Shown one piece after another: positions 3,851 through 62,150 of a stretch of 64,000 nucleotides of DNA. Source of the stretch: Candidatus Shapirobacteria bacterium (lineage in GTDB: Bacteria; Patescibacteriota; Microgenomatia; UBA12405). The stretch spans positions 33,962 through 97,961 of the forward strand of contig JBAYUY010000001.1 of assembly GCA_041674845.1 (NCBI GenBank), given 5' to 3'. Positions within the stretch are counted from its first letter, which is position 1. Every line of letters starts with the position of its first letter. The translations under genes were made by a program, and so were the position numbers. The notes under the pieces were generated by a model. That model was not told where the DNA came from. It saw nothing but the letters and a program-made list of their open reading frames with translations, and did no database searches.

Positions 3851-3870
3851 TGACTATATTATAATAGATA

Positions 3871-46364: not shown

Positions 46365-46414
46365 TTTTTAATTTAAAATTTTTAATTTTTAATCAATTTT
46401 AAATTATTTAATTC
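46363..46414 (+). repeat. AT-rich intergenic repeat, copy 3
   Basis: Begins at the topA stop; 38-nt core identical to copy 2; inverted partner at 47570-47600. Confidence 0.85.
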
Positions 46415-47478: not shown

Positions 47479-47569
47479 TTAATATAAATTGTGGTTTTTA
47501 TATTGGTTTTGCCTTATAATCACACTTGTTCTTCGCACCTTTACAAATTAAATTTTTTATTTGATTTTT

Positions 47570-47600
47570 AATAAAAATTAAAAATTTTAAATTAAAAATT
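47570..47600 (-). repeat. AT-rich intergenic repeat, copy 4 (inverted)
   Basis: Its reverse complement AATTTTTAATTTAAAATTTTTAATTTTTA matches the first 29 nt of the core exactly. Confidence 0.85.
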
Positions 47601-47608
47601 TATAATAT

Positions 47609-47683
47609 TCCCCTGTAGCTCAATGGTAGAGCGCCCGCCTGTTAAGCGGATGGTTTGTGGTCCGAATCCACACGGGGGAGCCA
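47609..47683 (+). tRNA. tRNA-Asn (GTT)
   Basis: Manual fold: TCCCCTG/CGGGGGA acceptor; anticodon loop CTGTTAA; CCA encoded; C27:A43 mismatch. Confidence 0.85.
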
Positions 47684-49255
47684 ACTTGGATTTGCAGGTC
47701 GCAAATCATCATATTTAGCCATGATTTCCGTATACTTTTGAGGTTCCAGCCAACCTTTATATTTACTGTCCCAGTTTTGTTTATTGGCCAGTACTCCATA
47801 TTCAGGTTTTAGGTCAACTTCCAGCATTTTGTCAGGTTTAAGTAATAGGTTCTCGCCAACAGTTAGAAGTATCATTTGTCTGTCTTCTCTAGTACCTATT
47901 TTAAACTTATTCTGACACGCCTTAGCAAAATCAATAGTCTTTTCTACTTTTACTCTCCAGTCCTCCAAATCTTCATCTGTATTTGCTAATTTTGACTTAA
48001 TTTCATTTTTTTCCTTCTCAAGATTTTGTTTCTTTTCCTTGTAAGTCGCATCGTCTATACTTTCATCCAACTTCATGTCCAAAAGCCTATTTAATCGGAT
48101 TTCTACCTTGGATAATTGGGATTGTTGATTTTTTAGTTTTTCCTCCTTAAAACCAGACTCATCCTTGTGAACAGCAGATAACCATTTATTTGACCAGTCA
48201 ACAAAATCTTGGTCGGGAGCTAAACTGGCTAAAATTTTATCAATTTGATTTAAAATGTCATTCTCGGTCAGTGGTTTTGAATGGCATTGTATATTTTTAT
48301 TTTTTCTAGTGCAGTAATAATAAACATAGGTAGCTGTTCTGCCAGTACCCTTGTAATACTTTATTTTTTGCGTTGCCGTCATTGCAGAGCCACACTCAGT
48401 ACAGCGAAATAGACCAGTCAAATCAAAAGTATGTTTTCTGGCAATCGGTTTTCCAAACTTGCCCAAAGCTCTTTGAACTACATCAAACTCTTCCCTGGTA
48501 ATCATTGGTGTGTGGGATCCTTTAAACCAGTTTCCAGAGTTCTTAGGCCATTCATACTCGCCATAATAAAATGGTTTTGTTAATAAATTGTAAAATGTTG
48601 ATTGAGAAATGACTCTTCCTTGCTGACTGGTTAATTTCCATTCTTCTGAAACTTCACGGTAAACTTCGCATGGCTGTTTCCCTGAAATTACTTCAGCAAA
48701 CATTCTTTTTACTAAAGGAAACCTTTCCTCATCAATAACTATTTCCTTAAACCCCTTTTTGCCAGTTGGTGTATTTTTGTATCCTAGTGTGGCAGGAGCA
48801 GGATACCAACCCATCTCCGCCTTAGTTTTCATACCTCTCTGACTATTTTTACCAAGATCGTCTATGAATTTTTGTGCCATACCAAATTCTAAGGACATCA
48901 ACAGACTGTCTTCGTTTATTTGAGAATACGTTTTACTAGGGGTAATGATTTCCACCTTCAAGTCTTTCATTGCCCAACTGATAGCACCACCATCAACGGG
49001 ATTTCTTGATAGTCTGTCTAATTTCCAGCATAAAATACCTTCGGCATCACCCTTTGCTAGTCCAGACATCATTTCTGCGAATAGTGGTCTGCCTGGAGCT
49101 TTTGCAGACATTGACTCCTCAAAAGTTTCAATAATTGTTAATTCAGCCTTATTGGCGAACTGTCTAAGTTCTTTAACCTGAGAAGGAAGAGATAACATTT
49201 GTTTATCCTCACCTTCTGACGATCTCCTGCAATACATGTATACTCTTTTTTTCAT
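47642..49255 (-). CDS. large serine recombinase
   Basis: YCRRSSEGE nucleophile motif; recombinase domain; zinc ribbon CTECGS...YYCTRKNKNIQC; coiled-coil. The last 14 codons are encoded by the tRNA-Asn 3' half. Confidence 0.85.
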   Translation of the reverse strand: MKKRVYMYCRRSSEGEDKQMLSLPSQVKELRQFANKAELTIIETFEESMSAKAPGRPLFAEMMSGLAKGDAEGILCWKLDRLSRNPVDGGAISWAMKDLKVEIITPSKTYSQINEDSLLMSLEFGMAQKFIDDLGKNSQRGMKTKAEMGWYPAPATLGYKNTPTGKKGFKEIVIDEERFPLVKRMFAEVISGKQPCEVYREVSEEWKLTSQQGRVISQSTFYNLLTKPFYYGEYEWPKNSGNWFKGSHTPMITREEFDVVQRALGKFGKPIARKHTFDLTGLFRCTECGSAMTATQKIKYYKGTGRTATYVYYYCTRKNKNIQCHSKPLTENDILNQIDKILASLAPDQDFVDWSNKWLSAVHKDESGFKEEKLKNQQSQLSKVEIRLNRLLDMKLDESIDDATYKEKKQNLEKEKNEIKSKLANTDEDLEDWRVKVEKTIDFAKACQNKFKIGTREDRQMILLTVGENLLLKPDKMLEVDLKPEYGVLANKQNWDSKYKGWLEPQKYTEIMAKYDDLRPANPSWLPRVDSDHKPSA

Positions 49256-49473: not shown

Positions 49474-49773
49474 CTATCTATTAACCCCTTCGCCTTTATC
49501 TAATTTATCTTTATAGGCGTCGTAAATTTGTGATTCTAATGCTTCCCAACACATTGAGTCCTCAAAATAGACTTTTGGGAAATACCTCACTCCTTTGAAC
49601 AAAGTTGGTGGTTCAATATTGATATGCTCACCTAACCTCTCATTAAGATAAGCACTTTTCCAAATGGCAAAATCCTTAATTATTATCATCCCGTATTCAC
49701 TGGTATGCATTTCTACGTTTGCATTTGCTAATAAATTACCTTTGTTCTTAATTTTTATTTTTATGTCAGACAT
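49474..49773 (-). CDS. hypothetical protein, weakly SpoVG-like
   Basis: 99 aa; IKIKNKGNLLANANVEM...IIIKDFAIW pattern resembles the SpoVG N-terminus. Confidence 0.3.
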   Translation of the reverse strand: MSDIKIKIKNKGNLLANANVEMHTSEYGMIIIKDFAIWKSAYLNERLGEHINIEPPTLFKGVRYFPKVYFEDSMCWEALESQIYDAYKDKLDKGEGVNR

Positions 49774-49788
49774 TCTTTTATAAAATAA

Positions 49789-50016
49789 TTAACAGTCAAT
49801 ATCCAAAAAAGCGTCCAATGCCTCAAACAAGTCTTTCTCGCTAAAGTACACCCCCTCATTACCCCCGGACCGATAAGTAACACGTAAGTCAAAAGAGCAA
49901 TTTTGAAATTTATTTACCTTAAGAAAATGGAATATTTTACGTGATTTCCTACTGCTTAAACTTTTAACTACTTTTGAGTCCAAGACAACTTTTACTGAGA
50001 TCTTAGGTTTGATCAT
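49789..50016 (-). CDS. hypothetical 75-aa protein
   Basis: ORF in a co-directional tight gene string. Confidence 0.4.
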   Translation of the reverse strand: MIKPKISVKVVLDSKVVKSLSSRKSRKIFHFLKVNKFQNCSFDLRVTYRSGGNEGVYFSEKDLFEALDAFLDIDC

Positions 50017-50158
50017 TTTTTGTTTTTGATGAAATTAATAACCTTAGACTTAAAAATTGTTTTGCCTTGATTTCGGACTCGTTATAATCCAAAAGAACCC
50101 CAAACTTTTGCTGATAAATTTTTTGGAAATCAACCACCGCTTCTTTAGGCAAGTTCAT
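50003..50158 (-). CDS. hypothetical 51-aa protein (unlisted)
   Basis: Hand-translated MNLPKEAVVDFQKIYQQKFGVLLDYNESEIKAKQFLSLRLLISSKTKNDQT; ATGA overlap with the upstream gene stop. Confidence 0.35.
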   Translation of the reverse strand: MNLPKEAVVDFQKIYQQKFGVLLDYNESEIKAKQFLSLRLLISSKTKNDQT

Positions 50159-50403
50159 AAGATTTCATACATTCTTGCCTTTAAATCTTTAATTTGGGTA
50201 AAATGCTCGCAGGCATCAACAGAAAGCCTTTTATTCCAGTAATCGGAAACTAATTTATGGAGTTGTGGGGTATTTTCAAAACAGAACACACAGTTTTTGT
50301 CGGTTGGAGATTTTTCAATCTCAAGAACAGGACAGAACAGAGATAGGGCACTAGCCAAGGCTAACGAGTTGGTTTTATAGTAATATGTATTTTTATCTTT
50401 CAC
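50155..50403 (-). CDS. DUF5659-like small protein
   Basis: YKTNSLALASALSLF...EIEKSPTDKNCVFCFE pattern; paralog at 60543-60779. Confidence 0.5.
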   Translation of the reverse strand: MKDKNTYYYKTNSLALASALSLFCPVLEIEKSPTDKNCVFCFENTPQLHKLVSDYWNKRLSVDACEHFTQIKDLKARMYEIL

Positions 50404-50478
50404 TCAGCAATTTTCCGCCAAGGACGTTCTCTTTTTTATGAGGGTCTTTGTCGGAAAAAGTTCGGAAATTAATTATTC

Positions 50479-51165
50479 TTATTTTGCGTATCTTAAGGAA
50501 ATTTTGTATCCAACACCTCTAATATTTCTCACAAATTGTTTAGCAGTTTTAATAGTCAATCCAACGGAGTTGGTTAGATAATTTAATAAGTCATCCCTGG
50601 TTTCATAAATTTGCTGTTCGGCAATCCTAGGATCTGTCTTTCTCATTTTGTCTAAGCCGAACTCTCTATCAATTTCCTTAAACGATACATATCCTGGGTA
50701 TTTATAAAGTAACAACTTTAATAATTTAATACCATTTTTACCCAATGGTAGATCAAATTTAGTTGTTTTGTAGGTAATTGTGCTTTCTTTTAAATCTATT
50801 GAAATCCTAAATTTAAAGTTAAACAGATTTTTATTGTCATTTCCTACGCGTGCTTTAAGCAGTCGCAAGTAATTTTCTAATGCTTCTTCATCAAGACTAA
50901 ATATAAATAATGGGGCGTTTGTTTGAGGTTTGTTATTTAGCCATCCATCCATGTCTCCTGTAAGTGTGTATCTTGTGTTGCCAGAATTCTCGCAGACATT
51001 TTCAATTACAGCCATTATTTGTTCGTCCGTAGCTAAAGATAAGTTTTGTTGGATATGGTCATACTCAACGTCAATACACTGTGACGTTGCAGCGAACTGG
51101 CTATAAGAGATTAATAAGTCAATCAATTTAATTTGAAGACGATTGAACGGTGTATCAATTTTCAT
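50479..51165 (-). CDS. DNA-binding protein with C-terminal OmpR/PhoB-type winged helix
   Basis: LLKLLLYKYPGYVSFKEI...VRNIRGVGYKISL. Confidence 0.55.
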   Translation of the reverse strand: MKIDTPFNRLQIKLIDLLISYSQFAATSQCIDVEYDHIQQNLSLATDEQIMAVIENVCENSGNTRYTLTGDMDGWLNNKPQTNAPLFIFSLDEEALENYLRLLKARVGNDNKNLFNFKFRISIDLKESTITYKTTKFDLPLGKNGIKLLKLLLYKYPGYVSFKEIDREFGLDKMRKTDPRIAEQQIYETRDDLLNYLTNSVGLTIKTAKQFVRNIRGVGYKISLRYAK

Positions 51166-51232
51166 ACTTATATATATTTGAATCTACCGTATTATCTCCT
51201 ATTTACACTGAAAAATGTCTGGAATATGTGGA

Positions 51233-51472
51233 TCAGAGAAGTGGACGAACAACGTAGTACATGAACATTAGGAATAAGCCAGGCAGTAAGGATATAATTG
51301 CAGCCACCTTAACCTCTTTGTTTTTATGTATTGAAAACAGTAAGGGAATTATGAAAAGTGAAACGATATTTATCGGGCTCTTGTCCCAAAAGTAACCAGT
51401 TAATTGATTAAAGGCATACGAAGAAAGTAAAAATAGTCCAATCCATAAAAACACAATCTTTTTAATTTCCAT
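51233..51472 (-). CDS. small membrane protein (79 aa, 3 TM)
   Basis: Hydrophobic segments only. Confidence 0.4.
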   Translation of the reverse strand: MEIKKIVFLWIGLFLLSSYAFNQLTGYFWDKSPINIVSLFIIPLLFSIHKNKEVKVAAIISLLPGLFLMFMYYVVRPLL

Positions 51473-51502
51473 TTATATTCTTTAATGATTAATATATAAA
51501 CT

Positions 51503-51964
51503 CTAGCGATTTATAAATAACACAACTGCTGAAATTAGCAAAGCTAAAACACATATTGCTACTACATTCTTTTGGGAAGTTGACCAGCTATTAATTTCTG
51601 CCGACTCCTTTGGATATAAACTAGCCAATACTTCTGGGTGCTTAAATAATAGGGGAGCCGTTCCGACTAGCGAGTACAAAGCGTAATTAAAAATTGGTAG
51701 TGAGTCAGAAATATACTTCAGAATCTGAAGAGACGAGCCAATCAGAAAAATACCTACAAAGCTTAAACCCGATATATATGCCAGTTTTTTAGTCCAATCA
51801 CCTGACTTAAAACGCTCTTGTTTTAATAGTGAATAAAATGCAATTGGAAACAAAATTGCAAAAATGACAACAACTATTGGAGCTACTGTGTCCAAAAGCA
51901 TACACATTGGTAAATCTGGGTTAGTACTACAAGCTTGGTTTATTTGATAGCTTAATACGCTCAT
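51503..51964 (-). CDS. membrane protein (153 aa, 4 TM)
   Basis: Hydrophobic segments only. Confidence 0.4.
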   Translation of the reverse strand: MSVLSYQINQACSTNPDLPMCMLLDTVAPIVVVIFAILFPIAFYSLLKQERFKSGDWTKKLAYISGLSFVGIFLIGSSLQILKYISDSLPIFNYALYSLVGTAPLLFKHPEVLASLYPKESAEINSWSTSQKNVVAICVLALLISAVVLFINR

Positions 51965-51991: not shown

Positions 51992-52008
51992 ATTAACCTG
52001 TGGTTAAT
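51992..52008. promoter_or_regulatory. operator palindrome O1
   Basis: ATTAACC-TGT-GGTTAAT perfect 7-bp arms in the divergent region between 51964 and 52087. Confidence 0.55.
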
Positions 52009-52036
52009 GAAAATATACCATATTTGTGCCCAAAAC

Positions 52037-52052
52037 ATAACCAGTGGTTAAT
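52037..52052. promoter_or_regulatory. operator palindrome O2
   Basis: TAACC-AGT-GGTTA core; centre is 44 bp from the O1 centre. Confidence 0.5.
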
Positions 52053-52086
52053 AAACTTATTCTGGATAGATTGGTAACTTTGTTTG

Positions 52087-52305
52087 ATGGAAGACAGGAA
52101 AATTACCCAAAAGGATATACAATTCGGGAGAAAACTTCAAAGAGTCAGGAAAAAAGCTGGTTTAACTCAAGAAAAGCTTGCGGATGAGACACGACTTAGC
52201 ACCACATTTATCGGATTGATTGAAACTGGTAGGAGAAGACCAAGTATGAAGACGCTTCAAAAAATAGCCTCCTCATTGGATATAAACATCAAAGATTTGT
52301 TTTAA
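52087..52305 (+). CDS. XRE-family HTH regulator
   Basis: GRKLQRVRKKAGLTQEKLADETRLSTTFIGLIETGRRRPS. Confidence 0.8.
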   Translation: MEDRKITQKDIQFGRKLQRVRKKAGLTQEKLADETRLSTTFIGLIETGRRRPSMKTLQKIASSLDINIKDLF

Positions 52306-52722
52306 GTCACGCCAGTTAATTATTTTATTTAGGCATGACAGCCTGAGTATATGATTAATTTTGTAGTCAAAACTCAATCACTGTAGTACAGCAAATAATT
52401 GTGTGTTTAGGCCAAAAAAGGATATGAATCTCCGCTTTTCGCTATTATCTTAACCAAATGTAAAACCGTTGTTAATAATCAGTTGGTGTTCTCAAAAGTA
52501 ATTTAATTTGTTAATAGATAAATAAAATGAACGACTTTCGCACATTACTATGAACTTGTTTCACGAGGTAACCATTTCCTCAAAAACAAGTAAACAGCGT
52601 AAACAAGAGACACATTTTACATATAAAGTTTATATATACGAAAAAAAGTAAAAAAAAATCGCCGTATTTATCGCAAAAATAGATAGTAGAAATAGGTAAA
52701 ACAAACTGTTACGATAATGTAG

Positions 52723-53826
52723 GTGAATATAAAATCCGTAGAAAACATAGTTGAGTCGTTCGTTTTTAATGATAATACAAAAGTACTCAGTATTTTATAT
52801 GAAGAACTAAAAAAGGCGAAAGATAGTAAAAAAACTAATTTAGCAAGGAGAATCCAACTATTAATTAGAAAAATACCCAAAAGCCGAATTATTAGCTCTC
52901 AAGGTACTAACTATTTTTCTGGTAATGAGGGAAGCATTCCTAATCCACTTTACGAAAGATTTATTTCCACGACCCCACTGGAAGAAGTAATACTTAACGA
53001 AGATGCAAAAACACTAATCCACCAGTTCATAGAAGAGTGGAATAATATTGATAGGCTAACTGAATTTGGTGTCAGACCAGCGAATAAGTTGCTGTTTTTT
53101 GGCCCTCCAGGTACCGGAAAAACAAAACTAGCATATGCTATTGCAAGTAGCTTAAATATTCCACTTATATTAATTAGACTAGATGAAGTTATATCGTCAT
53201 ATTTAGGTAAAACTGGGAAAAATATCAGAGAAATATTTGATTTAGCAGGTAAAGAAAAGTCTTTAATATTTTTAGACGAAATTGATACCCTTGCTAAACA
53301 TCGTGATGACGAAACTGAATTGGGAGAGCTAAAAAGGGTGGTGACTGTTCTATTGCAAAATATAGATAGTTTTCCAGAAGAATCAATTTTAATAGGTGCA
53401 ACTAATCACGAAAATTTACTTGACAATGCAATATGGCGTAGATTTCCGGTAAAAGTAAACTTTAATTTACCAAATAATAACAGTAGATTAAAACTTTTTG
53501 AACTGTATCTACATCCTTTCAAGTTAGATGTAGATATAAACTTATTGGCGAAAACAACTAAAGGGTTCAGTGGGTCCATGATTAACGATGCGTGTGAAAT
53601 GATGAAAAAGTATACGATCATGTCTCACTCAACAAAATTAAATGTAATAAATGCTTTTAAAGGAATCTTGTACATCTTAGGCTCTCGCAATAATGGAACC
53701 GATATTAAAACTAAAAAAACAGTATATAACATTTTAAGTTTTTTATATAAAAACGGATTTACTCTTAAAGACCTTAGTAAAATATCTTCCATTCCATATA
53801 CAACATTGGTGGATAATATTAAATAA
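52723..53826 (+). CDS. classical AAA+ ATPase (IetA-like)
   Basis: GTG start; Walker A GPPGTGKT; Walker B LIFLDEID; sensor-1 GATNHENLLD; Arg-finger region AIWRRF. Confidence 0.8.
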   Translation: MNIKSVENIVESFVFNDNTKVLSILYEELKKAKDSKKTNLARRIQLLIRKIPKSRIISSQGTNYFSGNEGSIPNPLYERFISTTPLEEVILNEDAKTLIHQFIEEWNNIDRLTEFGVRPANKLLFFGPPGTGKTKLAYAIASSLNIPLILIRLDEVISSYLGKTGKNIREIFDLAGKEKSLIFLDEIDTLAKHRDDETELGELKRVVTVLLQNIDSFPEESILIGATNHENLLDNAIWRRFPVKVNFNLPNNNSRLKLFELYLHPFKLDVDINLLAKTTKGFSGSMINDACEMMKKYTIMSHSTKLNVINAFKGILYILGSRNNGTDIKTKKTVYNILSFLYKNGFTLKDLSKISSIPYTTLVDNIK

Positions 53827-56240
53827 TGTTAAGTAAAATACTAGTACCTAGAAATACAGCAAAAAGAAGTGTGCCTTTTGGTCGGGATGATTTTATGGAA
53901 AAGTTTTGGCTCGGCTTTAATGAGCCGGAGAAATACGAGTCAAAGAAAAAGCTAATCTCTGAGAAGATTCAATCATTAACCTCAAAAGTAAAAGATGACC
54001 ATTGGCTATATGCAGAGATAAAACTAAACGATGACTCAAATACTAAATCTAAACAGCCATCCCTAGTTTGGTCGCAAAGTGGTTTGGACATTGTTTCTGC
54101 TGTTGATTCCCAAAATTACATTATCGGTGGTAAAAAAAATGATTTTGAAAGACTAGATAAAATTATAAGTTCAAGTAAATTTTCTATTGCAAAAACCGGA
54201 GACGGAGTAAGTAAAAAAACAAAGAATTTATATAGAGAAATATACACAATATCAGACTTTACTGATAAGAATACTTCGTATACAGGTAGAGTTGACGCAC
54301 AAATAGAAGAGCTAATCTCAAAGAAAGAATTTGAAACAGATCTGCTCTGTATATTGGAAATCAACTCAAACATTAATAGATCGGAATATGAAGATATCTA
54401 TTTGCAGATCAACTCATTTGTTGGTGACAAAAAAATCAAAAAGCTACCAATAGAGTTATTTATACATAATATGCAATATCAGGGAGCATTCAAGGTCAAA
54501 GAAATTTTTGGCCTGCTTACAGATATCAGATATTCCTATATTTCCCGTATTAAAATTATGCCTTCATACTCATGTCAAAACTGCATACCTAACTATGATC
54601 TTGGAGAAATAAAAATACTTCCTCCAGAGACCAATGAAATTATTGGAATAATTGATAGCGGCATTGATGATAAAAGCAAAATTTTTAACTCCTTAAAATT
54701 CCTTCATTTGAATCGTACGCCAGATGATAAGAAATGCAACAAAAACCACGGAACTTTTGTTGCTAGCCGTATATTATTTGGAGATAAGATATTTAATTCG
54801 GTCCATAACGGTTATTTAGCTCCTTCTGCAAAGTTTCTTGATATTCAAGTCTTGTATGACAACAATCAAGGTGACGGCGATACTGATGTGGACACAGTCC
54901 AACTGAAAACAGTAATTGACGAAGTGATAAACAAGTATGAGGATATACATATTTACAACCTTTCAATTAATGACAAAGAAGGCATACGATATGACATAAT
55001 GCCAGTTGATGATTTATCTGAGTTTATTGATGAACGAGTCCGAGAGAAGGATATTATTTTTGTTGTAAGTAGCGGAAATCATAAATTTTATCCTTCAGGT
55101 GACTACAAAAAGAATCCAGATGACTATTACAAAATATTTTCCGATAATACCACTGATACTCACATTGCGTCACCTGGAGATGCGCTAAATGTAATTACAG
55201 TAGGTTCAAATTCTTTAAATGCGGACAATAATTGTATCTGTAAAGTACAAGGATATCCGTCTCCTTTTACAAGAAAAGGTGGGTTGCGAGGCGGCTGGAA
55301 AAAACCCGAATTGGTAATGGACGGAGGAAACATCTTAGCTCCAAATAATCCTGCTGACTTCAGTGATGATGCCTTTTCGGAGGTTAGTAACAATAAATGT
55401 GGTGTTGAAGGAATAACTTTGGGTGGCAAGTTGTCAAAACAGTGTGGAAGCAGTTTTAGTACCCCACTAGTAACAAGACAGTGTGCATATTTGCTAGATA
55501 ATATTAAGAAGACAAACGCATCAAGTTTGTTAAAGCTTAACGGGAATAGAATAAATCTTGTTAAAGCGTTAATGATTCATTCAACAAATAAAATCCCTCA
55601 AGCTAAGATTGATGACAAAGATTTAAAACTGGCATACGGTTTTGGTGTCCCTGACATAGGAACTCTATTGCGGGATGATGAAAATCAAGTATCTATTGTC
55701 TATAGTGATATCTTGGAATATGATAAAAAAATTCACAAGTTACAAATAAAAATACCAGACGAGTTAGTAGGTGGTTCGGCTGAATTCATTTTCACATTGG
55801 TTTACAATCCTCCTGTAAATAAGAATTATCCAAGTGAATATAACATGACTTCAATTAATTCAAATTTGAGGTTTGTTTTGCCACCAAAGCTAAATACAAA
55901 GACAAATAAATTTGTACAAAACTATAGTCCCCTGATAAACAAATGGAGTTGGGAAAATTATCGTAAAAAATTCTTTAACGTAATTAACTTCAAGAACATT
56001 AAACAAAAAATCCCTTCCACTCTAATTGAAGTTTACGCTCAATTGTCTGTATCACCCTTCTATTTACAGGAAAAACTGGGTCATGAAAAAGAAATACTAC
56101 AACCATACACCTTTGTTCTGACCATAAGAGATGTTTTAAAAAGGAATATTTTACGCAACGAACTACTGTTAAGTAATCAGTTTAATAAGATTGAAATCTC
56201 GCAACAAGTTAAAATAAAAACAGAAATCAATACAAAATAA
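53826..56240 (+). CDS. S8 subtilisin-like serine protease with large N- and C-terminal extensions (IetS-like)
   Basis: Triad motifs IIDSGID (Asp), NHGTFVAS (His), GSSFSTP (Ser); TAATG overlap with the ATPase gene. Confidence 0.8.
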   Translation: MLSKILVPRNTAKRSVPFGRDDFMEKFWLGFNEPEKYESKKKLISEKIQSLTSKVKDDHWLYAEIKLNDDSNTKSKQPSLVWSQSGLDIVSAVDSQNYIIGGKKNDFERLDKIISSSKFSIAKTGDGVSKKTKNLYREIYTISDFTDKNTSYTGRVDAQIEELISKKEFETDLLCILEINSNINRSEYEDIYLQINSFVGDKKIKKLPIELFIHNMQYQGAFKVKEIFGLLTDIRYSYISRIKIMPSYSCQNCIPNYDLGEIKILPPETNEIIGIIDSGIDDKSKIFNSLKFLHLNRTPDDKKCNKNHGTFVASRILFGDKIFNSVHNGYLAPSAKFLDIQVLYDNNQGDGDTDVDTVQLKTVIDEVINKYEDIHIYNLSINDKEGIRYDIMPVDDLSEFIDERVREKDIIFVVSSGNHKFYPSGDYKKNPDDYYKIFSDNTTDTHIASPGDALNVITVGSNSLNADNNCICKVQGYPSPFTRKGGLRGGWKKPELVMDGGNILAPNNPADFSDDAFSEVSNNKCGVEGITLGGKLSKQCGSSFSTPLVTRQCAYLLDNIKKTNASSLLKLNGNRINLVKALMIHSTNKIPQAKIDDKDLKLAYGFGVPDIGTLLRDDENQVSIVYSDILEYDKKIHKLQIKIPDELVGGSAEFIFTLVYNPPVNKNYPSEYNMTSINSNLRFVLPPKLNTKTNKFVQNYSPLINKWSWENYRKKFFNVINFKNIKQKIPSTLIEVYAQLSVSPFYLQEKLGHEKEILQPYTFVLTIRDVLKRNILRNELLLSNQFNKIEISQQVKIKTEINTK

Positions 56241-56432
56241 TCTCTTTATTCCTGACTTTGTCGTCTCCAATAATAAAGTATTAAGAAACAGTCTAGCTTT
56301 CATGTCCACAGCATCTGTTGCAAATTTTTCATCAATCAAAGTTTCTTTTAATCCTTATATTTTTACTTACAAACCGCTTTACTAGACATACATTCAAAAG
56401 TGAGGGGTGGGTGGGGTGTTATACAATAACTT

Positions 56433-57689
56433 ATGGGTCCAATAATAATATTTGATAAGTCAGCACTTCAATCAATTAGCTTGGATGAATCAGTTTTTCT
56501 TCAAAACTTTTTTCTAACGAATATGACACCTATTTTTTTAATTGAAACTCTTGCTGACTTGGAGAAGGAACCAAATAAAGGGAAAAGCCCAGAGCAAATA
56601 GTAGGCGAGTTGGCAAATAAGACACCGGAAATGGGGATTATGCCTAATATATATCATCATAATTTAGTTATTGGAGATTTGTTGGGGCGTACCGTTGAGA
56701 TGAGCAGGCGTCCAATTATTGACGGTGGAACACCAAAAATTACACCAGATGGAAAGATAGGTTTTTACTTTGACGAGCCTCCAGAAAAAAAGGCGCTAAA
56801 AAGATGGCAAGACAGGAAGTTTTTAGAAGTAGAAAGAGATTATGCAAGAGAATGGAGACAATCATTGTCCAATCTCAGTTTTGAAACTCAAATGGGAATG
56901 GTAAAAAATATTGTCCCTCCAGAAGTACATTTTAGTAACCTTTCCGACATAAAGGCATTTATTGATAAATTTATTGCAACTAAAGATAAGTCTGTTCTTG
57001 ACTTAGCTTTTGAAATTCTGGAAGTACCAAGTAAATTACGCACTTTTGTTTACGAAAGGTGGAATAAGGATGGGCAACCACCTATTAATATTTTTTCGCC
57101 TTATGCATCTTTTGTCTTATCGGTTGATTTAGTTTTTTACTTGGGCTTAAATTCAAGCTTTATCTCTAAGGACAGGCCGAGTAATAAAATTGACCTTTCC
57201 TATCTTTATTACCTACCTTTTTGTATGGTATTCGTTTCAAAAGACAAACTTCACCAAAGAACAGTACCTCTATTCTTAAAAGAAGGACAGGTCTTTGTTT
57301 GGGGAGATGATTTTAAGGAGGGGATGAAAGAACTAGATAATTATTTTTCCCAGTATCAGGAAGAAATTAGTAAGCACGGACTTATCAGATTTGCCCCCTA
57401 CCCACCACAAAACTCTTTTATATCAAAGCTTTGGGACACAATGGGGTCAAAATGGAGAGGTGATGCAAGCAAAGCGCCGTTAGCAAAATCTTTTCCAACA
57501 CTACCCAATGACAGTTCATTAGTAAAACGTTTAAATAAGATGAGGGATGAAGCAAAACCGCTTGCTAATCCAGAGTTATATTCACCAGATGATGCCGACC
57601 ATGTAACTATTTCTCATATGGTTCACCTTAATAAGGGTAAATGGCGAATCCTTCCTGAAGGGATTGAAAATAACGGTGATAAAGATTAA
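56433..57689 (+). CDS. hypothetical 418-aa protein, possible split PIN-like nuclease
   Basis: N-terminal IIIFDKSALQSISL...LIETLADL and distal YYLPFCMVFVSKDK resemble PIN acidic motifs; weak. Confidence 0.3.
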   Translation: MGPIIIFDKSALQSISLDESVFLQNFFLTNMTPIFLIETLADLEKEPNKGKSPEQIVGELANKTPEMGIMPNIYHHNLVIGDLLGRTVEMSRRPIIDGGTPKITPDGKIGFYFDEPPEKKALKRWQDRKFLEVERDYAREWRQSLSNLSFETQMGMVKNIVPPEVHFSNLSDIKAFIDKFIATKDKSVLDLAFEILEVPSKLRTFVYERWNKDGQPPINIFSPYASFVLSVDLVFYLGLNSSFISKDRPSNKIDLSYLYYLPFCMVFVSKDKLHQRTVPLFLKEGQVFVWGDDFKEGMKELDNYFSQYQEEISKHGLIRFAPYPPQNSFISKLWDTMGSKWRGDASKAPLAKSFPTLPNDSSLVKRLNKMRDEAKPLANPELYSPDDADHVTISHMVHLNKGKWRILPEGIENNGDKD

Positions 57690-57750
57690 CTTTAAACCAT
57701 CTAATTATTGGTGTTATTATTTATTTAATATAGTCGTTTATTAAGAAAAT

Positions 57751-58053
57751 ATGGCATTAATCAATTGTCCTGAATGTAAACAACAAATTTCTGACACTGC
57801 TCCAACCTGTCCACATTGTGGTTTTATCCAACATGCTACACCCGTTGAAGGTTCTGGAAACTTAAATCAAAAAACAATTACAATTGAATCAACAAATAAG
57901 ACATGGAAATTGGTCATGATAGTGGCTATTTTAGTGTTTATTATTGGTGGTATGGTGGGTGCTTCTGATAGAGAATTCGGTTTTTCTTTAGTCGGATTGA
58001 GTGTATTAATTTTTATCGTAGCAAAAATTGGTGCTTGGTGGAGCAATAAATAA
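57751..58053 (+). CDS. zinc-ribbon protein with two C-terminal TM helices
   Basis: CPECKQQISDTAPTCPHCG, then two hydrophobic helices. Confidence 0.6.
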   Translation: MALINCPECKQQISDTAPTCPHCGFIQHATPVEGSGNLNQKTITIESTNKTWKLVMIVAILVFIIGGMVGASDREFGFSLVGLSVLIFIVAKIGAWWSNK

Positions 58054-58077
58054 AGGTATTTACCGCCTAAGTTATCT

Positions 58078-59616
58078 TTAATACCCACACACAGCAGTCC
58101 TAATTGACTCCAAGGCGGGGAGCAGAGACTTACTTAATATAACCTTATTATTTTCCGCTAAGATAGAGATAATTGGTGTGTAGACTACTCTCGATATTTG
58201 ACGATCCTTGACATAAATCTTCTCAAAAAAGAATCTGAGGTAATGTCGTTTCAAAAACTCGGGAGCGTCAATGTAAGTTTGATGAATGTTTTGTGTAAAA
58301 GATAGAACTTCCTCAACTAAATTGATTTCTAAGTTTCCACCCTTTTCGATCTTATTGATTTCATTGCTAATGTTTTCGATCCTATCTTGAATCTCGGTGT
58401 GTTTGCGTTTAAAGACGGTTCTATCAATAGTCCCGTCGAGTAAGTTGTCCTCTAATCGATTTCTTTTGGTCTCAAGGCCGGTCTTTTGGTTGACATAGGC
58501 CTGTATTCTTGAAGCCGTGTTTTTTCTGCCATCGGCGATATGTTCTTTACACTTTTCGATCACCATATCGATAAATGTTTGTGAGAATTGAACTGTTTTC
58601 ATTAGTTCTTCAACTTGTGTTTCCAAATTTACCATTTCAATATAAACAGCTGGACAATTATTTCGGTCCCTTTTAGGACAGTGATAATAAGCTATTTTAC
58701 CTCCTCGAGCCTTTAAACTCACTTCGTCCTTGTGCCATTCGGCGGTGAATCTTTGCCCACAATGGTCACAATAAATAAAGCCTCTTAATAAAAAATTGTG
58801 TACTCGTTTGCGGATTAAAAAACTTCGGTGCTTGGCTGCCACATATTGGCAAATGTCGTACAGTTCTTTGGTAATTATTGGTATCTGATTACCCATTTTT
58901 GATTCACCATGCCATCGTATAAGGCCGTAATAGAAGGGATTTCGCAAAATATTATTTAATGTACTCCTGCCAAATATTGTGCCATTTTTAGAGACCATAT
59001 TTCGGTCCTCTAACCAATCTTGTAAATATATGAGTGAATAGTTGCCGGTTGAATAAAGTTCATATAGTTCCTTAACGATTGGAGCAACCACTGGATCAGG
59101 GATACAAGTTTTTCGTTCTCTGTCTCCACCGATTGATTTATAACCAATCGGTGGGGGAGTTGGTTGCCAACCCTCAAAATACTTTTGACTTAGGGCGTCT
59201 CTTGTCCTTTGCCCATTAACCTCACTTTCCCATTGAGCCACACTGGCAAAAATGTTTGGAATCAGACTATTTCCTCCTTCCATTAAATCACCCTCATTGA
59301 TTGACAGCAATTTAATATTCTTATCTTTTAGGGTTGCGTACATTCGGGTGAAGTCGTTAACATTTCGAGCAAACCGATCAATTTTATAAATAATCACTGC
59401 GTCTACCGGTTCTTCTTCAATCAACTTAAACATTCTTTGTAACTCTGGCCTGTCGGCTGTTTTACCACTTTTTCCACTATCATCAAAAATTTCCTTTATG
59501 CGATATTCACGATCCTTAGCGTATTGCCGACATTGTCTAATCTGATTGTCAGTTGAGAATCCCTCATTCTTTTGTTCGTCAGATGAAACACGGATATATA
59601 GATAACAGTTTTTCAT
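58078..59616 (-). CDS. large serine recombinase
   Basis: YIRVSSDEQ nucleophile motif; DRFARN; recombinase domain; zinc ribbon CDHCGQ...YYHCPKRDRNNC; coiled-coil. Confidence 0.85.
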   Translation of the reverse strand: MKNCYLYIRVSSDEQKNEGFSTDNQIRQCRQYAKDREYRIKEIFDDSGKSGKTADRPELQRMFKLIEEEPVDAVIIYKIDRFARNVNDFTRMYATLKDKNIKLLSINEGDLMEGGNSLIPNIFASVAQWESEVNGQRTRDALSQKYFEGWQPTPPPIGYKSIGGDRERKTCIPDPVVAPIVKELYELYSTGNYSLIYLQDWLEDRNMVSKNGTIFGRSTLNNILRNPFYYGLIRWHGESKMGNQIPIITKELYDICQYVAAKHRSFLIRKRVHNFLLRGFIYCDHCGQRFTAEWHKDEVSLKARGGKIAYYHCPKRDRNNCPAVYIEMVNLETQVEELMKTVQFSQTFIDMVIEKCKEHIADGRKNTASRIQAYVNQKTGLETKRNRLEDNLLDGTIDRTVFKRKHTEIQDRIENISNEINKIEKGGNLEINLVEEVLSFTQNIHQTYIDAPEFLKRHYLRFFFEKIYVKDRQISRVVYTPIISILAENNKVILSKSLLPALESIRTAVCGY

Positions 59617-59618
59617 AT

Positions 59619-60011
59619 TTATTTTATGGATAAATTTGTAAAGTCTAAATACGTGTCGGGTCTCTCGGGACCAAGGTCAACAGCAACAACAGTTATTCCT
59701 GGGCTGGCAAATTCAATCATTTTTCTTACGATTGAATTACTTTTTCTTCCTAATCTTGTGAAATCTGCAACAATAAGGTATTCGACGTTATAAAGTCGCT
59801 CTAAGCACTTAACCAATAAAAATAGTCCTCTTCTTGTAATTTGATTTCCACTAATCCCTCTGTCGTGAATTACTCTTCTTACGATAACGCCTTTTTCTCT
59901 GGCATATTTTCGACATTTTCTTTCTTGTTGAGCGAGCGAGATAATTCCAGCATATTTTTCTGTTTTCGCTTTTCGAACATATATTAAACACGATCTTTTA
60001 TTTCTATACAT
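59619..60011 (-). CDS. resolvase-domain-only paralog lacking the canonical nucleophile Ser
   Basis: 130 aa; IYVRKAKTEK in place of Y-x-R-V-S-S/T; retains DRGISG and ADFTRLGR motifs; 2-nt gap to the recombinase gene. Confidence 0.6.
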   Translation of the reverse strand: MYRNKRSCLIYVRKAKTEKYAGIISLAQQERKCRKYAREKGVIVRRVIHDRGISGNQITRRGLFLLVKCLERLYNVEYLIVADFTRLGRKSNSIVRKMIEFASPGITVVAVDLGPERPDTYLDFTNLSIK

Positions 60012-60085
60012 ATATTTTTTAATCTATAAATCTAACTTAATAACTTATACTAACTTATACATTATATACCTCCTAACAAACATAT

Positions 60086-60508
60086 TTACTTGCTCATATT
60101 TAATACCTCCTTCATACTAGATAAACCTTTAACACTCCTTTTTCCTTTTCCTTTTAGATAAGTATTAATAGTCGGAAGTGTGGAACCGTTATGGAGGGGA
60201 ACAATGCTTCTTATCTGATCGGAACTGCCGTTCCTATATATCTCTAAATGTTTTGATACTTTGTAAGTGTTAGATTGATTAAATCCGTGACGAGTTTTGT
60301 ATACTAGGCCAGCATTAATTAGCTCATCGGTTAAATCACGAATATACCGAGTGGAGACTCGTACTCGTTTTGCTAATAATTCTTGTCCGGGAAAACACCA
60401 GTCATCCTTACCACAGTGTTTAATTAATACGCAATAAAGTAGCACAGCAGGAGCAGATAGTTGAGAAGGTTCAAAGATTTCGTTGGGTATCATGGAGAAG
60501 TTTTTCAT
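60086..60508 (-). CDS. helix-turn-helix protein (replication-initiator / regulator-like)
   Basis: IPNEIFEPSQLSAPAVLLYCVLIKHCGKD..CFPGQELLAKRVRVSTRYIRDLTDELINAGLV. Confidence 0.55.
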   Translation of the reverse strand: MKNFSMIPNEIFEPSQLSAPAVLLYCVLIKHCGKDDWCFPGQELLAKRVRVSTRYIRDLTDELINAGLVYKTRHGFNQSNTYKVSKHLEIYRNGSSDQIRSIVPLHNGSTLPTINTYLKGKGKRSVKGLSSMKEVLNMSK

Positions 60509-60542
60509 TTTTATTTTTATATTTATTTTTAACTTCTCCTAA

Positions 60543-60779
60543 CTAATCGCTATAAATTAACTGTTTTAAGTCCTTTTGGGCACTAAAAAATCGGTGGGGT
60601 TCTATTAGCGCCTCATAGCGCAAGAATTTATCGGTGGCTGACTTTCGTAATTCGTTTTCTTCAAAGTTAAATATCACCCGCCTTGGGTCACTTTTATCAA
60701 CAGATTTCAATGAACACCCTTCGCAGAGTAATAGGCTAGCTAATTGAAAATTATCGGTTGGGAAATATTTATCGGGCAT
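60543..60779 (-). CDS. DUF5659-like small protein
   Basis: FQLASLLLCEGCSLKSVDKSDPRRVIFNFEE; paralog of 50155-50403. Confidence 0.5.
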   Translation of the reverse strand: MPDKYFPTDNFQLASLLLCEGCSLKSVDKSDPRRVIFNFEENELRKSATDKFLRYEALIEPHRFFSAQKDLKQLIYSD

Positions 60780-60945
60780 TTGAGAGTTCTAAATTTTTAT
60801 TTTTATCTTTATTGGCCACGTTAAAGGCCGGATATAATTCAGGATTTCTTTTATAGCTGATATTTGCCAAGACAATCTCAAACCATTGCTGAGCGGCTTG
60901 TTCTACAACTTTTTTATTTATAACTGTCGTGTTCATTAGGTCCAT
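60769..60945 (-). CDS. hypothetical 58-aa protein (unlisted)
   Basis: Hand-translated MDLMNTTVINKKVVEQAAQQWFEIVLANISYKRNPELYPAFNVANKDKNKNLELSNAR; overlaps the downstream start. Confidence 0.25.
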   Translation of the reverse strand: MDLMNTTVINKKVVEQAAQQWFEIVLANISYKRNPELYPAFNVANKDKNKNLELSNAR

Positions 60946-61005
60946 TTTGACCTAACAATAGGACCATTAAAAAATACAAAGTGGTACCACTTTTCCTCAC
61001 ATTTA

Positions 61006-61818
61006 TTACCTTATGTCTTTTATTCTTTTCTTAAAATCGACAACTATTTGTCTTACTGCGGTATTTTCGATATTATAGAAGTTTTTTGGATCTTCATCAT
61101 CAGACACATAATTCAGTTTTTCGAGTATTTCCTTTACCTTATATCCAAGTTTGTAATAGATATAAACCAAAAGATCTCTCCTAAAGTATTTGTATTTTTT
61201 TGAAAGTGGATATGAGCAAAGTGATTTTTTAATATTACTGATGTCCTTCCAATTTTCCTTAATAAAGTTGATCAATTTTGTTTTAGTGGTATCTTTATAA
61301 ATTCTCAAAGATAATTTAATTGGAACTTCTGAGTCAACAAACTTTTCCCTAGCCTCACCATAATCCAACTCTATTTTTGTTTTATATCGGTATTCTTCGG
61401 GGGTAAAATGATATTCAAACCATTCATAGTCTGGCGGAACAGAAACCCCAACAGTACCATAATACAGAAAGTCTAGAATCATATCGCCATATAGTTTCCA
61501 TTCGACATTGTATTCATTACAAAGTTCGACGATAGGTTTATCATATGAATTTACTGGTGTGTTTGGTGTTTTATTTACATAATCTAGATATGAATCATAT
61601 CCCTTTTTTTCTTTATCCTGTCCATAAAATTCATTTGGTATTTTAAAACTATGTCTCATTTTTATTATTCTGTTTAAAAATTGTTTATCAGAAATTAACG
61701 AAACTATCGTCATATATTGTTCTTGGTATTTTTCAACTTTTTCTTCTTCATTCTTACTTACTTGATCTAACAAGCACTCAAAGTTTTTCCGTTCAAAATC
61801 TGACAGAGTATTTTTCAT
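61006..61818 (-). CDS. hypothetical 270-aa protein
   Basis: Long ORF, no recognised motif; C-terminal 50 aa may be an HTH. Confidence 0.45.
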   Translation of the reverse strand: MKNTLSDFERKNFECLLDQVSKNEEEKVEKYQEQYMTIVSLISDKQFLNRIIKMRHSFKIPNEFYGQDKEKKGYDSYLDYVNKTPNTPVNSYDKPIVELCNEYNVEWKLYGDMILDFLYYGTVGVSVPPDYEWFEYHFTPEEYRYKTKIELDYGEAREKFVDSEVPIKLSLRIYKDTTKTKLINFIKENWKDISNIKKSLCSYPLSKKYKYFRRDLLVYIYYKLGYKVKEILEKLNYVSDDEDPKNFYNIENTAVRQIVVDFKKRIKDIR

Positions 61819-61985
61819 TTTTATATTTATGTTTATGTTTGTACTTAGGCATATTATACGTCGTTCAAAATTAAAAATAATCGGTATTTTTCAGCTACTA
61901 TTGTCAATAGGGCTAAATCGACATATAATTACCTCAACAATCAGTTTGCCTAAACTCTACAGCAATGTGGGGCATGGTAATAAAT

Positions 61986-62030
61986 CCGAGTTAAGGGGCG
62001 CAAGCTCTCTGTTAGCTTTCCTTAACTCGG
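61986..62030 (+). other. strong hairpin within a relatively GC-rich non-coding stretch
   Basis: Perfect 11-bp stem CCGAGTTAAGG / CCTTAACTCGG with a 23-nt loop; further stems (GATTC-GAAA-GAGTC, CTCTC...GAGAG) up to about 62110. Confidence 0.5.
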
Positions 62031-62150
62031 TAATATGTCGAAAGATATATTGGATTGATTCGAAAGAGTCTCTCCGGTTAGCAGAGAGCTTTTGCCTTTC
62101 TGCTGGCATACCACTGATCAATTTATTATTTGAGAGCTAATAAATTGACT

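What the first reader, a model, noticed from the sequence alone, without database searches (positions are those of the whole stretch)
52087..58053. AAA+ ATPase / S8 subtilase operon (ietAS-like) with a repressor switch and two extra uncharacterised genes on a recombinase element
Seen in sequence:
- 52723-53826 has every classical AAA motif: GPPGTGKT, LIFLDEID, GATNHENLLD, WRRF.
- It is translationally coupled (TAATG) to an 804-aa protein with an intact subtilase triad: IIDSGID, NHGTFVAS, GSSFSTP. About 260 aa N-terminal and about 200 aa C-terminal of that protein match nothing I recognise.

Established knowledge: an ATPase plus subtilase gene pair was reported as the anti-phage system ietAS (Gao et al. 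2020). To my knowledge its mechanism is unknown.

Inference: this copy sits in an integrative element of a CPR-like genome. It lies behind an XRE regulator with paired operators and a 417-bp leader. A PIN-like 418-aa gene and a zinc-ribbon membrane gene follow on the same strand. It may therefore be an extended, regulated variant or a distinct protease-based abortive system.
Basis: partly seen in the sequence, partly recalled or inferred. Interest (0 to 1): 0.8.

Follow-up and report, generated by a model that had tools for sequence, protein, structure and literature searches.

The report
Ordinary ietAS defence pair in CPR bacterium
This is an intact but ordinary two-gene ietAS toxin-antitoxin / anti-phage module (AAA+ ATPase plus subtilase) carried as cargo on a 10-kb integrative element in a Candidatus Shapirobacteria genome. 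The three neighbouring genes thought to extend it are unrelated modules.

Summary
52723-53826 encodes an IetA-family AAA+ ATPase (PADLOC IetA, E 1.2e-96). It overlaps by 1 nt (TAATG) an IetS-family S8 subtilase at 53826-56240 (PADLOC IetS, E 1.5e-67). All catalytic motifs are intact and conserved in a Patescibacteria-specific clade.

The "extended, regulated variant" reading is not supported:
- In 29 loci with IetS relatives, IetA is directly upstream in 24 of 24 testable cases. The 418-aa gene is present in 0 of 29, the XRE in 2 of 29 and the zinc-ribbon gene in 1 of 29.
- In 88 loci with homologs of the 418-aa gene, none has IetA, IetS or the zinc-ribbon gene.
- The 418-aa gene belongs to a large unannotated family of stand-alone genes (2,307 clusters). 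They sit in variable mobile-element and defence-island contexts.
- The zinc-ribbon membrane gene is a conserved host gene just outside the element.
- The XRE with its two significant palindromes forms a divergent switch module. The same module occurs in related elements that lack ietAS.

A sister element has the same backbone (recombinase 54% identical) but different cargo.

Verdict: a new, divergent member of a known system. Interest is low to moderate. The most interesting by-product is the orphan 418-aa family. Its model is confident but matches no solved structure.

The parts
52723..53826 (+). ietA: AAA+ ATPase of the classical clade, the presumed antitoxin (367 aa). Motifs: Walker A aa 127-134, pore loop SSYLG 158-162, Walker B 181-188, sensor-1 N228, Arg fingers R239/R240. 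It has an HTH-like C-terminal tail.
   Evidence: PADLOC IetA PDLC02196 at 1.2e-96, covering residues 3-362. NCBIfam IteA 5.4e-85. Pfam AAA 8.4e-32. Best PDB sequence relatives are the Cdc48/p97 D2 domains, 1e-57. The motifs are conserved in 20 of 21 clade members. It is 30% identical over its full length to the E. faecium plasmid IetA.
53826..56240 (+). ietS: S8 subtilase, the presumed toxin/effector (804 aa). Catalytic D277, H308, S543 and oxyanion N418. N-terminal alpha/beta modules include a propeptide-like unit at about 172-250. A disordered linker follows at 252-258. A C-terminal beta-jelly-roll covers about 620-792.
   Evidence: PADLOC IetS PDLC02197 at 1.5e-67 (residues 56-681) and PDLC02199 (residues 270-801). 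phrog_3964 at 6e-74 over residues 40-799. Invariant catalytic residues in 29 sequences. AF2 model pLDDT 84.7. Foldseek top hits are ProN-Tk-SP 3afg at 4e-23 and KP-43. The start codon overlaps the ietA stop.
52084..52305 (+). XRE/Cro-C1-type HTH regulator (73 aa). It is part of a divergent switch module of the element and is not a conserved ietAS component.
   Evidence: Pfam HTH_3 3.5e-14. PADLOC Control_protein 1.3e-15. Homologs occur in only 2 of 29 IetS loci. They also occur in the orf418 loci L001 and L013, which lack ietAS. The same arrangement (small TM-protein genes divergent from the XRE) is seen in L098 and L013.
51993..52051 (.). Two 15-bp palindromes TTAACCNNTGGTTAA (51993-52007 and 52037-52051), 44 bp centre to centre. 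They lie in the 119-bp divergent intergenic region between the XRE and the leftward membrane-protein genes. They are the presumed XRE operators.
   Evidence: 4 strand-matches against 0.25 expected; 0 of 100 shuffles reach this. Sequence. The palindrome is absent from all 127 other loci.
52306..52722 (+). 417-bp AT-rich spacer between the XRE and ietA. It presumably holds the ietAS promoter. No assignable feature was found.
   Evidence: No ORF of 35 aa or more. No Rfam hit. Folding z-score -1.05. No homology to any fetched locus, and not a remnant of the genes that follow the XRE in L098 and L013.
56433..57689 (+). orf418: an independent cargo gene. It belongs to a large unannotated stand-alone family with a PIN-like residue pattern (D8, E38, D42, S269-x-D271). 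It is not an ietAS component.
   Evidence: 1,531 homologs. 2,307 representatives at 50% identity, 914 of them at E<=1e-30. IetA, IetS and orf100 are each absent from all 88 orf418 loci. No conserved neighbour. AF2 pLDDT 90 and pTM 0.88 but no PDB or BFVD fold match. No Pfam, PADLOC, NCBIfam or PHROG hit.
57751..58053 (+). orf100: a zinc-ribbon protein with 2 TM helices. It is a conserved host gene flanking the insertion site, outside the element.
   Evidence: Pfam Zn_ribbon_3. Homologs at 72-89% identity sit in related genomes with no ietAS. Nucleotide homology to those loci covers about 57705-58125 only. In L120 it lies downstream of tRNA-Asn.
47642..49255 (-). Large serine recombinase (537 aa) of the element that carries ietAS. 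The last 42 nt of its ORF overlap tRNA-Asn on the opposite strand.
   Evidence: Pfam Resolvase, Recombinase and Zn_ribbon_recom. It is 54% identical to the recombinase of the sister element L122/L123, which carries different cargo. tRNA-Asn is at 47609-47683. The left junction is at about 47677-47684.
49474..51964 (-). Leftward backbone operon of the element. It encodes small proteins, including a DUF5659 protein (50155-50403), a 228-aa protein and two membrane proteins.
   Evidence: ORFs. DUF5659 6e-12. Homologs of o75 and o82 are in the same order in L122/L123. No PADLOC hits.

Best explanation
The locus is a canonical two-gene ietAS module. It is carried as cargo on a ~10-kb large-serine-recombinase integrative element (about 47.68-57.70 kb), inserted at the 3' end of tRNA-Asn in a Candidatus Shapirobacteria genome.

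Steps shown here by sequence:
- IetA is a classical-clade AAA+ ATPase. Its Walker A/B motifs, sensor-1, arginine fingers and an aromatic pore loop (SSYLG) are intact, so it looks like a polypeptide-threading unfoldase.
- IetS is an intracellular subtilase with an intact Asp-His-Ser triad. It has a propeptide-like module before the catalytic domain and a C-terminal beta-jelly-roll.
- The two genes are translationally coupled.

Steps taken from published work on homologs:
- The protease is a toxin and the ATPase is its antitoxin.
- The pair stabilises mobile DNA and gives abortive-infection defence.
- It is switched on by expression of a single phage protein.

Inferred mechanism: IetA uses ATP to keep IetS latent, by binding or remodelling it, possibly through its N-terminal propeptide-like region. 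A phage protein disables or titrates IetA. IetS is then free to cleave host proteins, arresting the cell before phage release. The same addiction property stabilises the element.

The neighbours are separate modules:
- The XRE with its two palindromic operators is the divergent switch of the element backbone.
- orf418 is a second, independent cargo gene.
- orf100 is host DNA.
For: Identity of the pair:
- PADLOC IetA 1.2e-96 and IetS 1.5e-67, with near full-length coverage.
- NCBIfam IteA/IteS are the best hits. phrog_3964 matches over the full length.
- Annotated plasmid ietAS loci have the same architecture.
- The pair is conserved: IetA is directly upstream in 24 of 24 IetS loci that have upstream DNA.
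- Catalytic residues are invariant.
- IetA is closest to the Cdc48/p97 D2 unfoldase domains.
- The IetS model resembles pro-subtilases that have a C-terminal jelly-roll.

Independence of the neighbours:
-.
- The sister element L122/L123 shares the recombinase (54% identity) and the o75/o82 genes. It carries PLD-dsRBD and other cargo in place of ietAS and orf418.

Published function:
- Toxin-antitoxin behaviour (PMC13069673; PMC8562856, where deleting the ATPase alone is lethal in JCVI-syn2.0).
- Abortive infection triggered by SPbeta YosG (bioRxiv 10.1101/2022.08.27.505566).
Against: - No experiment exists for this clade. The clade is only 26-30% identical to plasmid ietAS.
- It scores below NCBIfam's equivalog cut-offs: 286 bits against 510, and 175 against 900.
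- How IetA restrains IetS is unknown in any system (PMC13069673), so the latency and release steps are inference.
- Co-transcription of ietAS from the XRE promoter, or read-through into orf418, cannot be excluded. No terminator was predicted in either gap.
- One locus (L109) has an orf100-like gene 270 bp after IetS. I read this as the same kind of insertion site, but the contig is too short to prove it.
Confidence: 0.8

Rival explanations
1. Extended four- or five-gene system. XRE, IetA, IetS, orf418 and orf100 act together as a regulated protease-based abortive system. This would be analogous to ietHAS, where an extra gene became essential.
For: All five genes are on the same strand with short gaps (192 and 61 bp), and no terminator was predicted between them. 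There is precedent: ietAS has recruited an essential helicase in E. coli (PMC13069673). One locus (L109) has an orf100-like gene just after IetS, and L098 has an XRE homolog 1.4 kb upstream on the same strand.
Against: orf418 is in 0 of 29 IetS loci. IetA and IetS are in 0 of 88 orf418 loci. orf100 is in 1 of 29 and the XRE in 2 of 29. orf100 lies in host DNA outside the element and is 72-89% conserved in genomes without ietAS. The XRE module occurs without ietAS (L001, L013).
Confidence: 0.05
2. The pair serves mainly as an addiction (post-segregational killing) module. It stabilises the integrative element in a small CPR genome and has little or no anti-phage role.
For: ietAS was first described as a plasmid-stability toxin-antitoxin system (cited in PMC13069673 and PMC8562856). 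Chromosomal mycoplasma homologs behave as toxin-antitoxin pairs. In this clade the pair sits within a few kb of a large serine recombinase in 12 of 29 loci.
Against: Homologs from E. coli and Bacillus protect against phage by abortive infection (10.1101/2022.08.27.505566; PMC13069673). Clade members also sit beside type I R-M, AbiTii-like and helicase-nSTAND genes, a defence-island context. The two roles are not mutually exclusive.
Confidence: 0.25
3. IetA and IetS form a two-component ATP-dependent protease. IetA unfolds substrates and feeds them to IetS, ClpXP-like, for housekeeping protein quality control.
For: IetA has an intact aromatic pore loop and belongs to the Cdc48/FtsH/PAN clade of unfoldases.
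Against: The pair has a sporadic, mobile-element-linked distribution rather than conserved housekeeping synteny. Published genetics show the protease is toxic without the ATPase, so it does not need the ATPase for activity (PMC8562856). Subtilases are not self-compartmentalising proteases.
Confidence: 0.05

Closest known systems
ietAS (Gao_Iet; IetA AAA+ ATPase + IetS S8 peptidase), anti-phage/toxin-antitoxin system of E. coli, Bacillus and Agrobacterium Ti plasmids
   Same: It has the same two protein families by profile and the same order (A then S). The genes are overlapping/coupled and similar in size (367 and 804 aa against about 370 and 750). The catalytic motifs are intact and the location is a mobile element.
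   Different: This is a divergent Patescibacteria-specific clade. It is 26-30% identical to a plasmid pair and 32-42% identical within the clade. It scores below NCBIfam equivalog thresholds. It is carried on a large-serine-recombinase element at a tRNA gene rather than on a plasmid or prophage.
Mycoplasma AAA-ATPase/subtilisin-like protease toxin-antitoxin module (MMCAP2_0132/0133; JCVISYN2_132/133)
   Same: It is a chromosomal ATPase (353 aa) plus S8 protease (757 aa) pair in a minimal genome. It is associated with horizontal-transfer scars. It was experimentally shown to be a toxin-antitoxin pair (PMC8562856).
   Different: The lineage differs, and the sequence relationship to this copy was not measured here.
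ietHAS (Liu-DS4), ietAS with an essential SNF2 helicase
   Different: There is no helicase here. The extra genes in this window are not conserved with the pair.
Pro-subtilases with a C-terminal beta-jelly-roll (Tk-SP of Thermococcus kodakaraensis, KP-43)
   Same: These are the best structural matches of the IetS model, covering a propeptide-like module, the S8 core and the C-terminal beta domain.
   Different: Those enzymes are secreted and are activated by propeptide autoprocessing. IetS is cytoplasmic, has about 170 extra N-terminal residues and is controlled by an AAA+ partner.

Membership tests
ietAS (Gao_Iet) | IetA-family AAA+ ATPase (profile match) | tested here: met
   PADLOC PDLC02196 at 1.2e-96, residues 3-362 of 367 against profile positions 4-364 of 374.
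ietAS (Gao_Iet) | IetS-family S8 peptidase, including the family-specific flanking regions | tested here: met
   PADLOC PDLC02197 at 1.5e-67 (residues 56-681) and PDLC02199 (residues 270-801). phrog_3964 covers residues 40-799.
ietAS (Gao_Iet) | The two genes are adjacent on one strand, with the ATPase first | tested here: met
   The genes overlap by 1 nt (TAATG) at 53826. The same order is seen in 24 of 24 related loci and on plasmids.
ietAS (Gao_Iet) | Intact ATPase and protease active sites | tested here: met
   Walker A/B, pore loop, sensor-1 and Arg fingers are conserved. D277, H308, N418 and S543 are invariant.
ietAS (Gao_Iet) | NCBIfam equivalog score thresholds (IteA 510 bits, IteS 900 bits) | tested here: not met
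   The scores are 285.7 and 174.6 bits. Both models are still the top hits. This marks a divergent clade, not a different family.
ietAS (Gao_Iet) | Protease is toxic and the ATPase neutralises it; confers phage resistance by abortive infection | not testable with these tools
   This is known only for homologs (PMC8562856; PMC13069673; 10.1101/2022.08.27.505566).
Extended ietAS variant (ietHAS-like multi-gene system) | An additional gene is conserved next to the pair across homologs | tested here: not met
   orf418 is in 0 of 29 IetS loci, orf100 in 1 of 29 and the XRE in 2 of 29. IetA and IetS are in 0 of 88 orf418 loci.
PIN-domain nucleases (for orf418) | Profile or fold match to a PIN family | tested here: not met
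   No Pfam, NCBIfam, PADLOC or PHROG hit. Foldseek against the PDB gives best E 0.07 and TM<=0.18. The BFVD top hit is a PIN protein, but at E 1.1.
PIN-domain nucleases (for orf418) | Conserved acidic residues at strand ends (beta1-D, helix-E, beta-[ST]xD) | tested here: inconclusive
   D8, E38, D42 and S269-x-D271 are invariant and lie at the expected secondary-structure positions. Spatial clustering could not be checked.
Defence-system control proteins (C-protein/CapH-like XRE) | The regulator is consistently encoded beside the system it controls | tested here: not met
   The PADLOC Control_protein and capH hits are generic HTH_3 matches. XRE homologs are next to ietAS in only 2 of 29 loci. 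They also occur without ietAS.

The most novel reading that the evidence does not exclude
The 418-aa gene (56433-57689) founds a large family that has never been annotated. The family has 2,307 clusters at 50% identity, spread across Patescibacteria, Actinomycetota, Acidobacteriota, Gammaproteobacteria and others. Members are stand-alone cargo genes of mobile elements and defence islands. The protein has a confidently predicted fold with no solved or viral match, and a PIN-like set of invariant acidic residues. It may be a new single-gene nuclease toxin or anti-phage effector. On this reading it sits beside ietAS because defence genes cluster, not because the two work together.
Probability: 0.3. 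Interest if true: 0.6.

Novelty: new member of a known kind. Interest (0 to 1): 0.3.

Why it matters
The result adds a divergent, Patescibacteria-specific clade to ietAS. CPR bacteria have tiny genomes and are thought to carry few defence systems, so an intact abortive-infection/addiction module on a mobile element there is mildly informative. It parallels the validated pair in mycoplasmas.

It does not open the unsolved question of how IetA restrains IetS. It does give a comparative set of 29 IetS and 21 IetA sequences with invariant positions. It also gives a structural hypothesis: a propeptide-like module and a disordered linker at 252-258.

The analysis also removes a false lead, the supposed five-gene system. 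It flags an orphan protein family that may deserve its own study.

Tried and rejected
- Att direct repeats for the element: none found, only AT-rich noise. Boundaries were set instead by loss of homology to related loci.
- A function for the 417-bp leader: no Rfam hit, no small ORF, no unusual folding, no pseudogene remnant and no homology.
- A third operator in the leader (52450-52464, 2 mismatches): within chance expectation.
- The operator palindrome in related loci: none.
- The fold of orf418: the PDB and BFVD searches gave nothing significant. The profile against PDB sequences gave nothing. Weak DUF7809 hits in 6 of 38 members did not reappear among the 8 more divergent members rescanned.
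- Fusion partners of orf418: one DUF5677 only.
- A conserved partner of orf418: none. A 699-aa downstream gene occurs only in near-identical Actinomycetota contigs.
- A solved IetS structure by sequence: none.
- PF27160 and PF27210, seen on distant IetS relatives, are not in the Pfam copy at hand.
- Gao et al. 2020 is not held in the paper library.
Full report
**Observation.** The ORF map reproduces every coordinate in the finding.
- XRE: 52084/52087-52305.
- A 367-aa ORF at 52723-53826 (GTG start).
- An 804-aa ORF at 53826-56240. Its ATG overlaps the preceding TAA by one base.
- A 418-aa ORF at 56433-57689.
- A 100-aa ORF at 57751-58053.

The quoted AAA motifs lie at residues 127 (GPPGTGKT), 181 (LIFLDEID), 225 (GATNHENLLD) and 238 (WRRF). 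The subtilase triad is D277, H308 and S543, with the oxyanion-hole N418. An exact protein match places the window in a Candidatus Shapirobacteria MAG, on a 949-kb contig.

**Identity of the pair.** PADLOC gives IetA at 1.2e-96 (near full length) and IetS at 1.5e-67. A second IetS model covers residues 270-801. NCBIfam's IteA and IteS models are the best hits (5.4e-85 and 3e-51) but score below the strict equivalog cut-offs.

IetS also matches phrog_3964 over residues 40-799.

IetA belongs to the classical AAA clade. Its best solved relatives are the Cdc48/p97 D2 domains (1e-57). In an alignment of 21 clade members, several motifs are conserved in all but one frameshifted copy. These are Walker A, an aromatic pore loop SS[YF]LG, Walker B, an ELGELKR motif, sensor-1 ATN and WRRF.

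An AlphaFold model of IetS (pLDDT 84.7) matches pro-subtilases that have a C-terminal beta-jelly-roll (ProN-Tk-SP 4e-23, KP-43). Its secondary structure shows:
- a beta-alpha-beta-beta-alpha-beta module at about 172-250;
- a low-confidence linker at 252-258;
- the S8 core;
- a beta domain at about 620-792.

No IetS relative has a solved structure by sequence. Annotated plasmid loci (E. faecium pW6-2, pRi2659) show the same ATPase-then-S8 arrangement. Identity to this copy is 30% for IetA and 26% for IetS.

**Are the neighbours part of the system?** I collected 29 loci encoding IetS relatives. The closest are 32-42% identical, and those with a source name are from Patescibacteria-type MAGs. About 22 of the 29 are non-redundant.
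- IetA is immediately upstream in all 24 loci that have upstream DNA.
- orf418 homologs are in 0 of 29, XRE homologs in 2 of 29 and orf100 homologs in 1 of 29.
- A large serine recombinase is present in 12 of 29.
- The flanks vary: an AbiTii-like gene, type I R-M, RepB/Prim-Pol genes, a helicase-nSTAND protein and a heavy-metal ATPase.

In the other direction, 88 loci encoding orf418 homologs contain no IetA, no IetS and no orf100 within 10 kb.

**orf418.** The family is large: 1,531 hits in the word-indexed search. An exhaustive profile search finds 2,307 representatives at 50% identity, 914 of them at E<=1e-30. Almost all are 405-430 aa. The family is spread over many phyla.

It has no conserved neighbour. 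The 150 immediate neighbours in 75 loci hit 134 different Pfam families, and none occurs more than 4 times. They include Mrr, NA-iREase, TIR/ThsB, CBASS cyclases, methyltransferases, integrases and RtcB. Other copies sit in conjugative or recombinase elements.

It is almost absent from sequenced plasmids (one partial hit). It is absent from the GenBank phage collection and occurs on 2 IMG/VR viral contigs.

The AlphaFold model is confident (pLDDT 90, pTM 0.88). Even so, it has no significant match in the PDB or BFVD, and no profile library recognises it.

The invariant residues D8-K9-S10, E38, D42 and S269-x-D271-x-x-H274 sit after strand 1, in the helix after strand 2, and after a later strand.

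**orf100 and the element boundaries.** orf100 has homologs at 60-89% identity, far closer than anything found for IetS or orf418. None of their contexts has ietAS.
- In L120 the order is topA ... tRNA-Asn, three genes, then orf100.
- In L124 it lies among housekeeping genes.
- Nucleotide homology between the window and these loci covers only about 57705-58125.

On the left, homology to the empty-site-like L120 ends at the 3' end of tRNA-Asn. Homology to L123 begins there, at about 47677-47684.

L122 and L123 carry a sister element. Its recombinase is 54% identical to the window's, and o75 and DUF5659 homologs are in the same order. Its cargo is entirely different (a PLD-dsRBD protein and others), and it is followed by the orf100 homolog.

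The ietAS pair and orf418 are therefore interchangeable cargo of an element spanning about 47.68-57.70 kb. orf100 is flanking host DNA. A second recombinase element starts at about 58.1 kb.

**The XRE and the leader.** The two palindromes TTAACCNNTGGTTAA lie in the 119-bp divergent region between the XRE and two leftward membrane-protein genes. They are clearly non-random.

XRE homologs in L098 and L013 show the same layout: small TM-protein genes divergent from the XRE. In both, the XRE is followed by unrelated 233-240-aa genes. L013 has no ietAS. The XRE is therefore best read as the switch module of the element. It is not a dedicated ietAS regulator, although co-transcription in this copy cannot be excluded.

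The 417-bp spacer has no ORF, no Rfam hit, no unusual folding and no homology to any fetched locus. By eye, IetA ends in an HTH-like tail (…LKDLSKISSIPYTTLVDNIK), conserved in L098 and similar in the E. faecium protein. This suggests possible autoregulation, which is inference.

**Mechanism.** From the literature:
- ietAS is a toxin-antitoxin pair with the protease as toxin and the ATPase as antitoxin (PMC13069673).
- A homologous pair is validated in mycoplasmas, where deleting the ATPase alone is lethal (PMC8562856).
- A Bacillus ietAS acts by abortive infection and is triggered by expression of the SPbeta protein YosG (bioRxiv 10.1101/2022.08.27.505566).
- As of April 2026 the molecular mechanism is still stated to be unknown (PMC13069673).

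My best model for this copy is as follows. IetA is a pore-loop-bearing unfoldase that uses ATP to hold IetS latent. It may act on the N-terminal propeptide-like region. A phage factor disables or titrates IetA. IetS then degrades host proteins and aborts the infection. The same dependence on IetA stabilises the element.

The identities and architecture are shown here. The toxin-antitoxin and abortive-infection behaviour is borrowed from homologs. The latency and release steps are inferred.

**Verdict.** This is a correct identification of a known system in a new lineage, so a new member of a known kind. The proposal of an extended or regulated variant is not supported. Interest is low to moderate (0.3). 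The orphan orf418 family is the most novel item in the region.

Noticed in passing
window 61947-62061 (+): There is a strong Rfam match to LOOT RNA (RF03000): 74 bits against a gathering score of 46.4, E 1.3e-12. It lies in the second recombinase element, between a 270-aa leftward gene and a rightward 173-aa gene.
   Followed up: partly
window 47642-47683 and 58078-58125: Both large serine recombinase ORFs run across the element/host junction. About the last 14-15 codons of rec537 lie antisense within tRNA-Asn. Those of rec512 lie within the host DNA conserved downstream of orf100. The sister element L123 does the same. So the att crossover seems to lie inside the 3' end of the recombinase gene, and the C-terminus would change on excision.
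   Followed up: partly
window 58078-62100: A second, tandem mobile element lies directly after orf100. It encodes a large serine recombinase (512 aa), a 130-aa resolvase-domain protein, a DnaD/replication-initiator-like HTH_36 protein and a DUF5659-like protein.
   Followed up: partly
window 46363-46404 and 47559-47600: A 42-nt inverted repeat (88% complementary) brackets 1.15 kb of small-ORF DNA between topA and tRNA-Asn.
   Followed up: no
window 52341-52412: A long imperfect hairpin lies just downstream of the XRE stop codon. A 17-bp stem pairs 52341-52357 with 52396-52412. It has no U-tract.
   Followed up: no
L002-L004 (Actinomycetota MAGs), 3319-5418: In these near-identical contigs the orf418 homolog overlaps by 4 nt a downstream 699-aa gene with no Pfam domain. 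This may be a lineage-specific partner.
   Followed up: partly
L107 889-1739: The IetA gene in this metagenomic locus is frameshifted after the pore loop. This is either a decaying copy or an assembly error.
   Followed up: no
L109 1751-2047: A zinc-ribbon protein with 2 TM helices, 35% identical to orf100, lies 270 bp downstream of an IetS homolog on a 2.9-kb contig. This may be the same type of insertion site in a more distant genome.
   Followed up: partly
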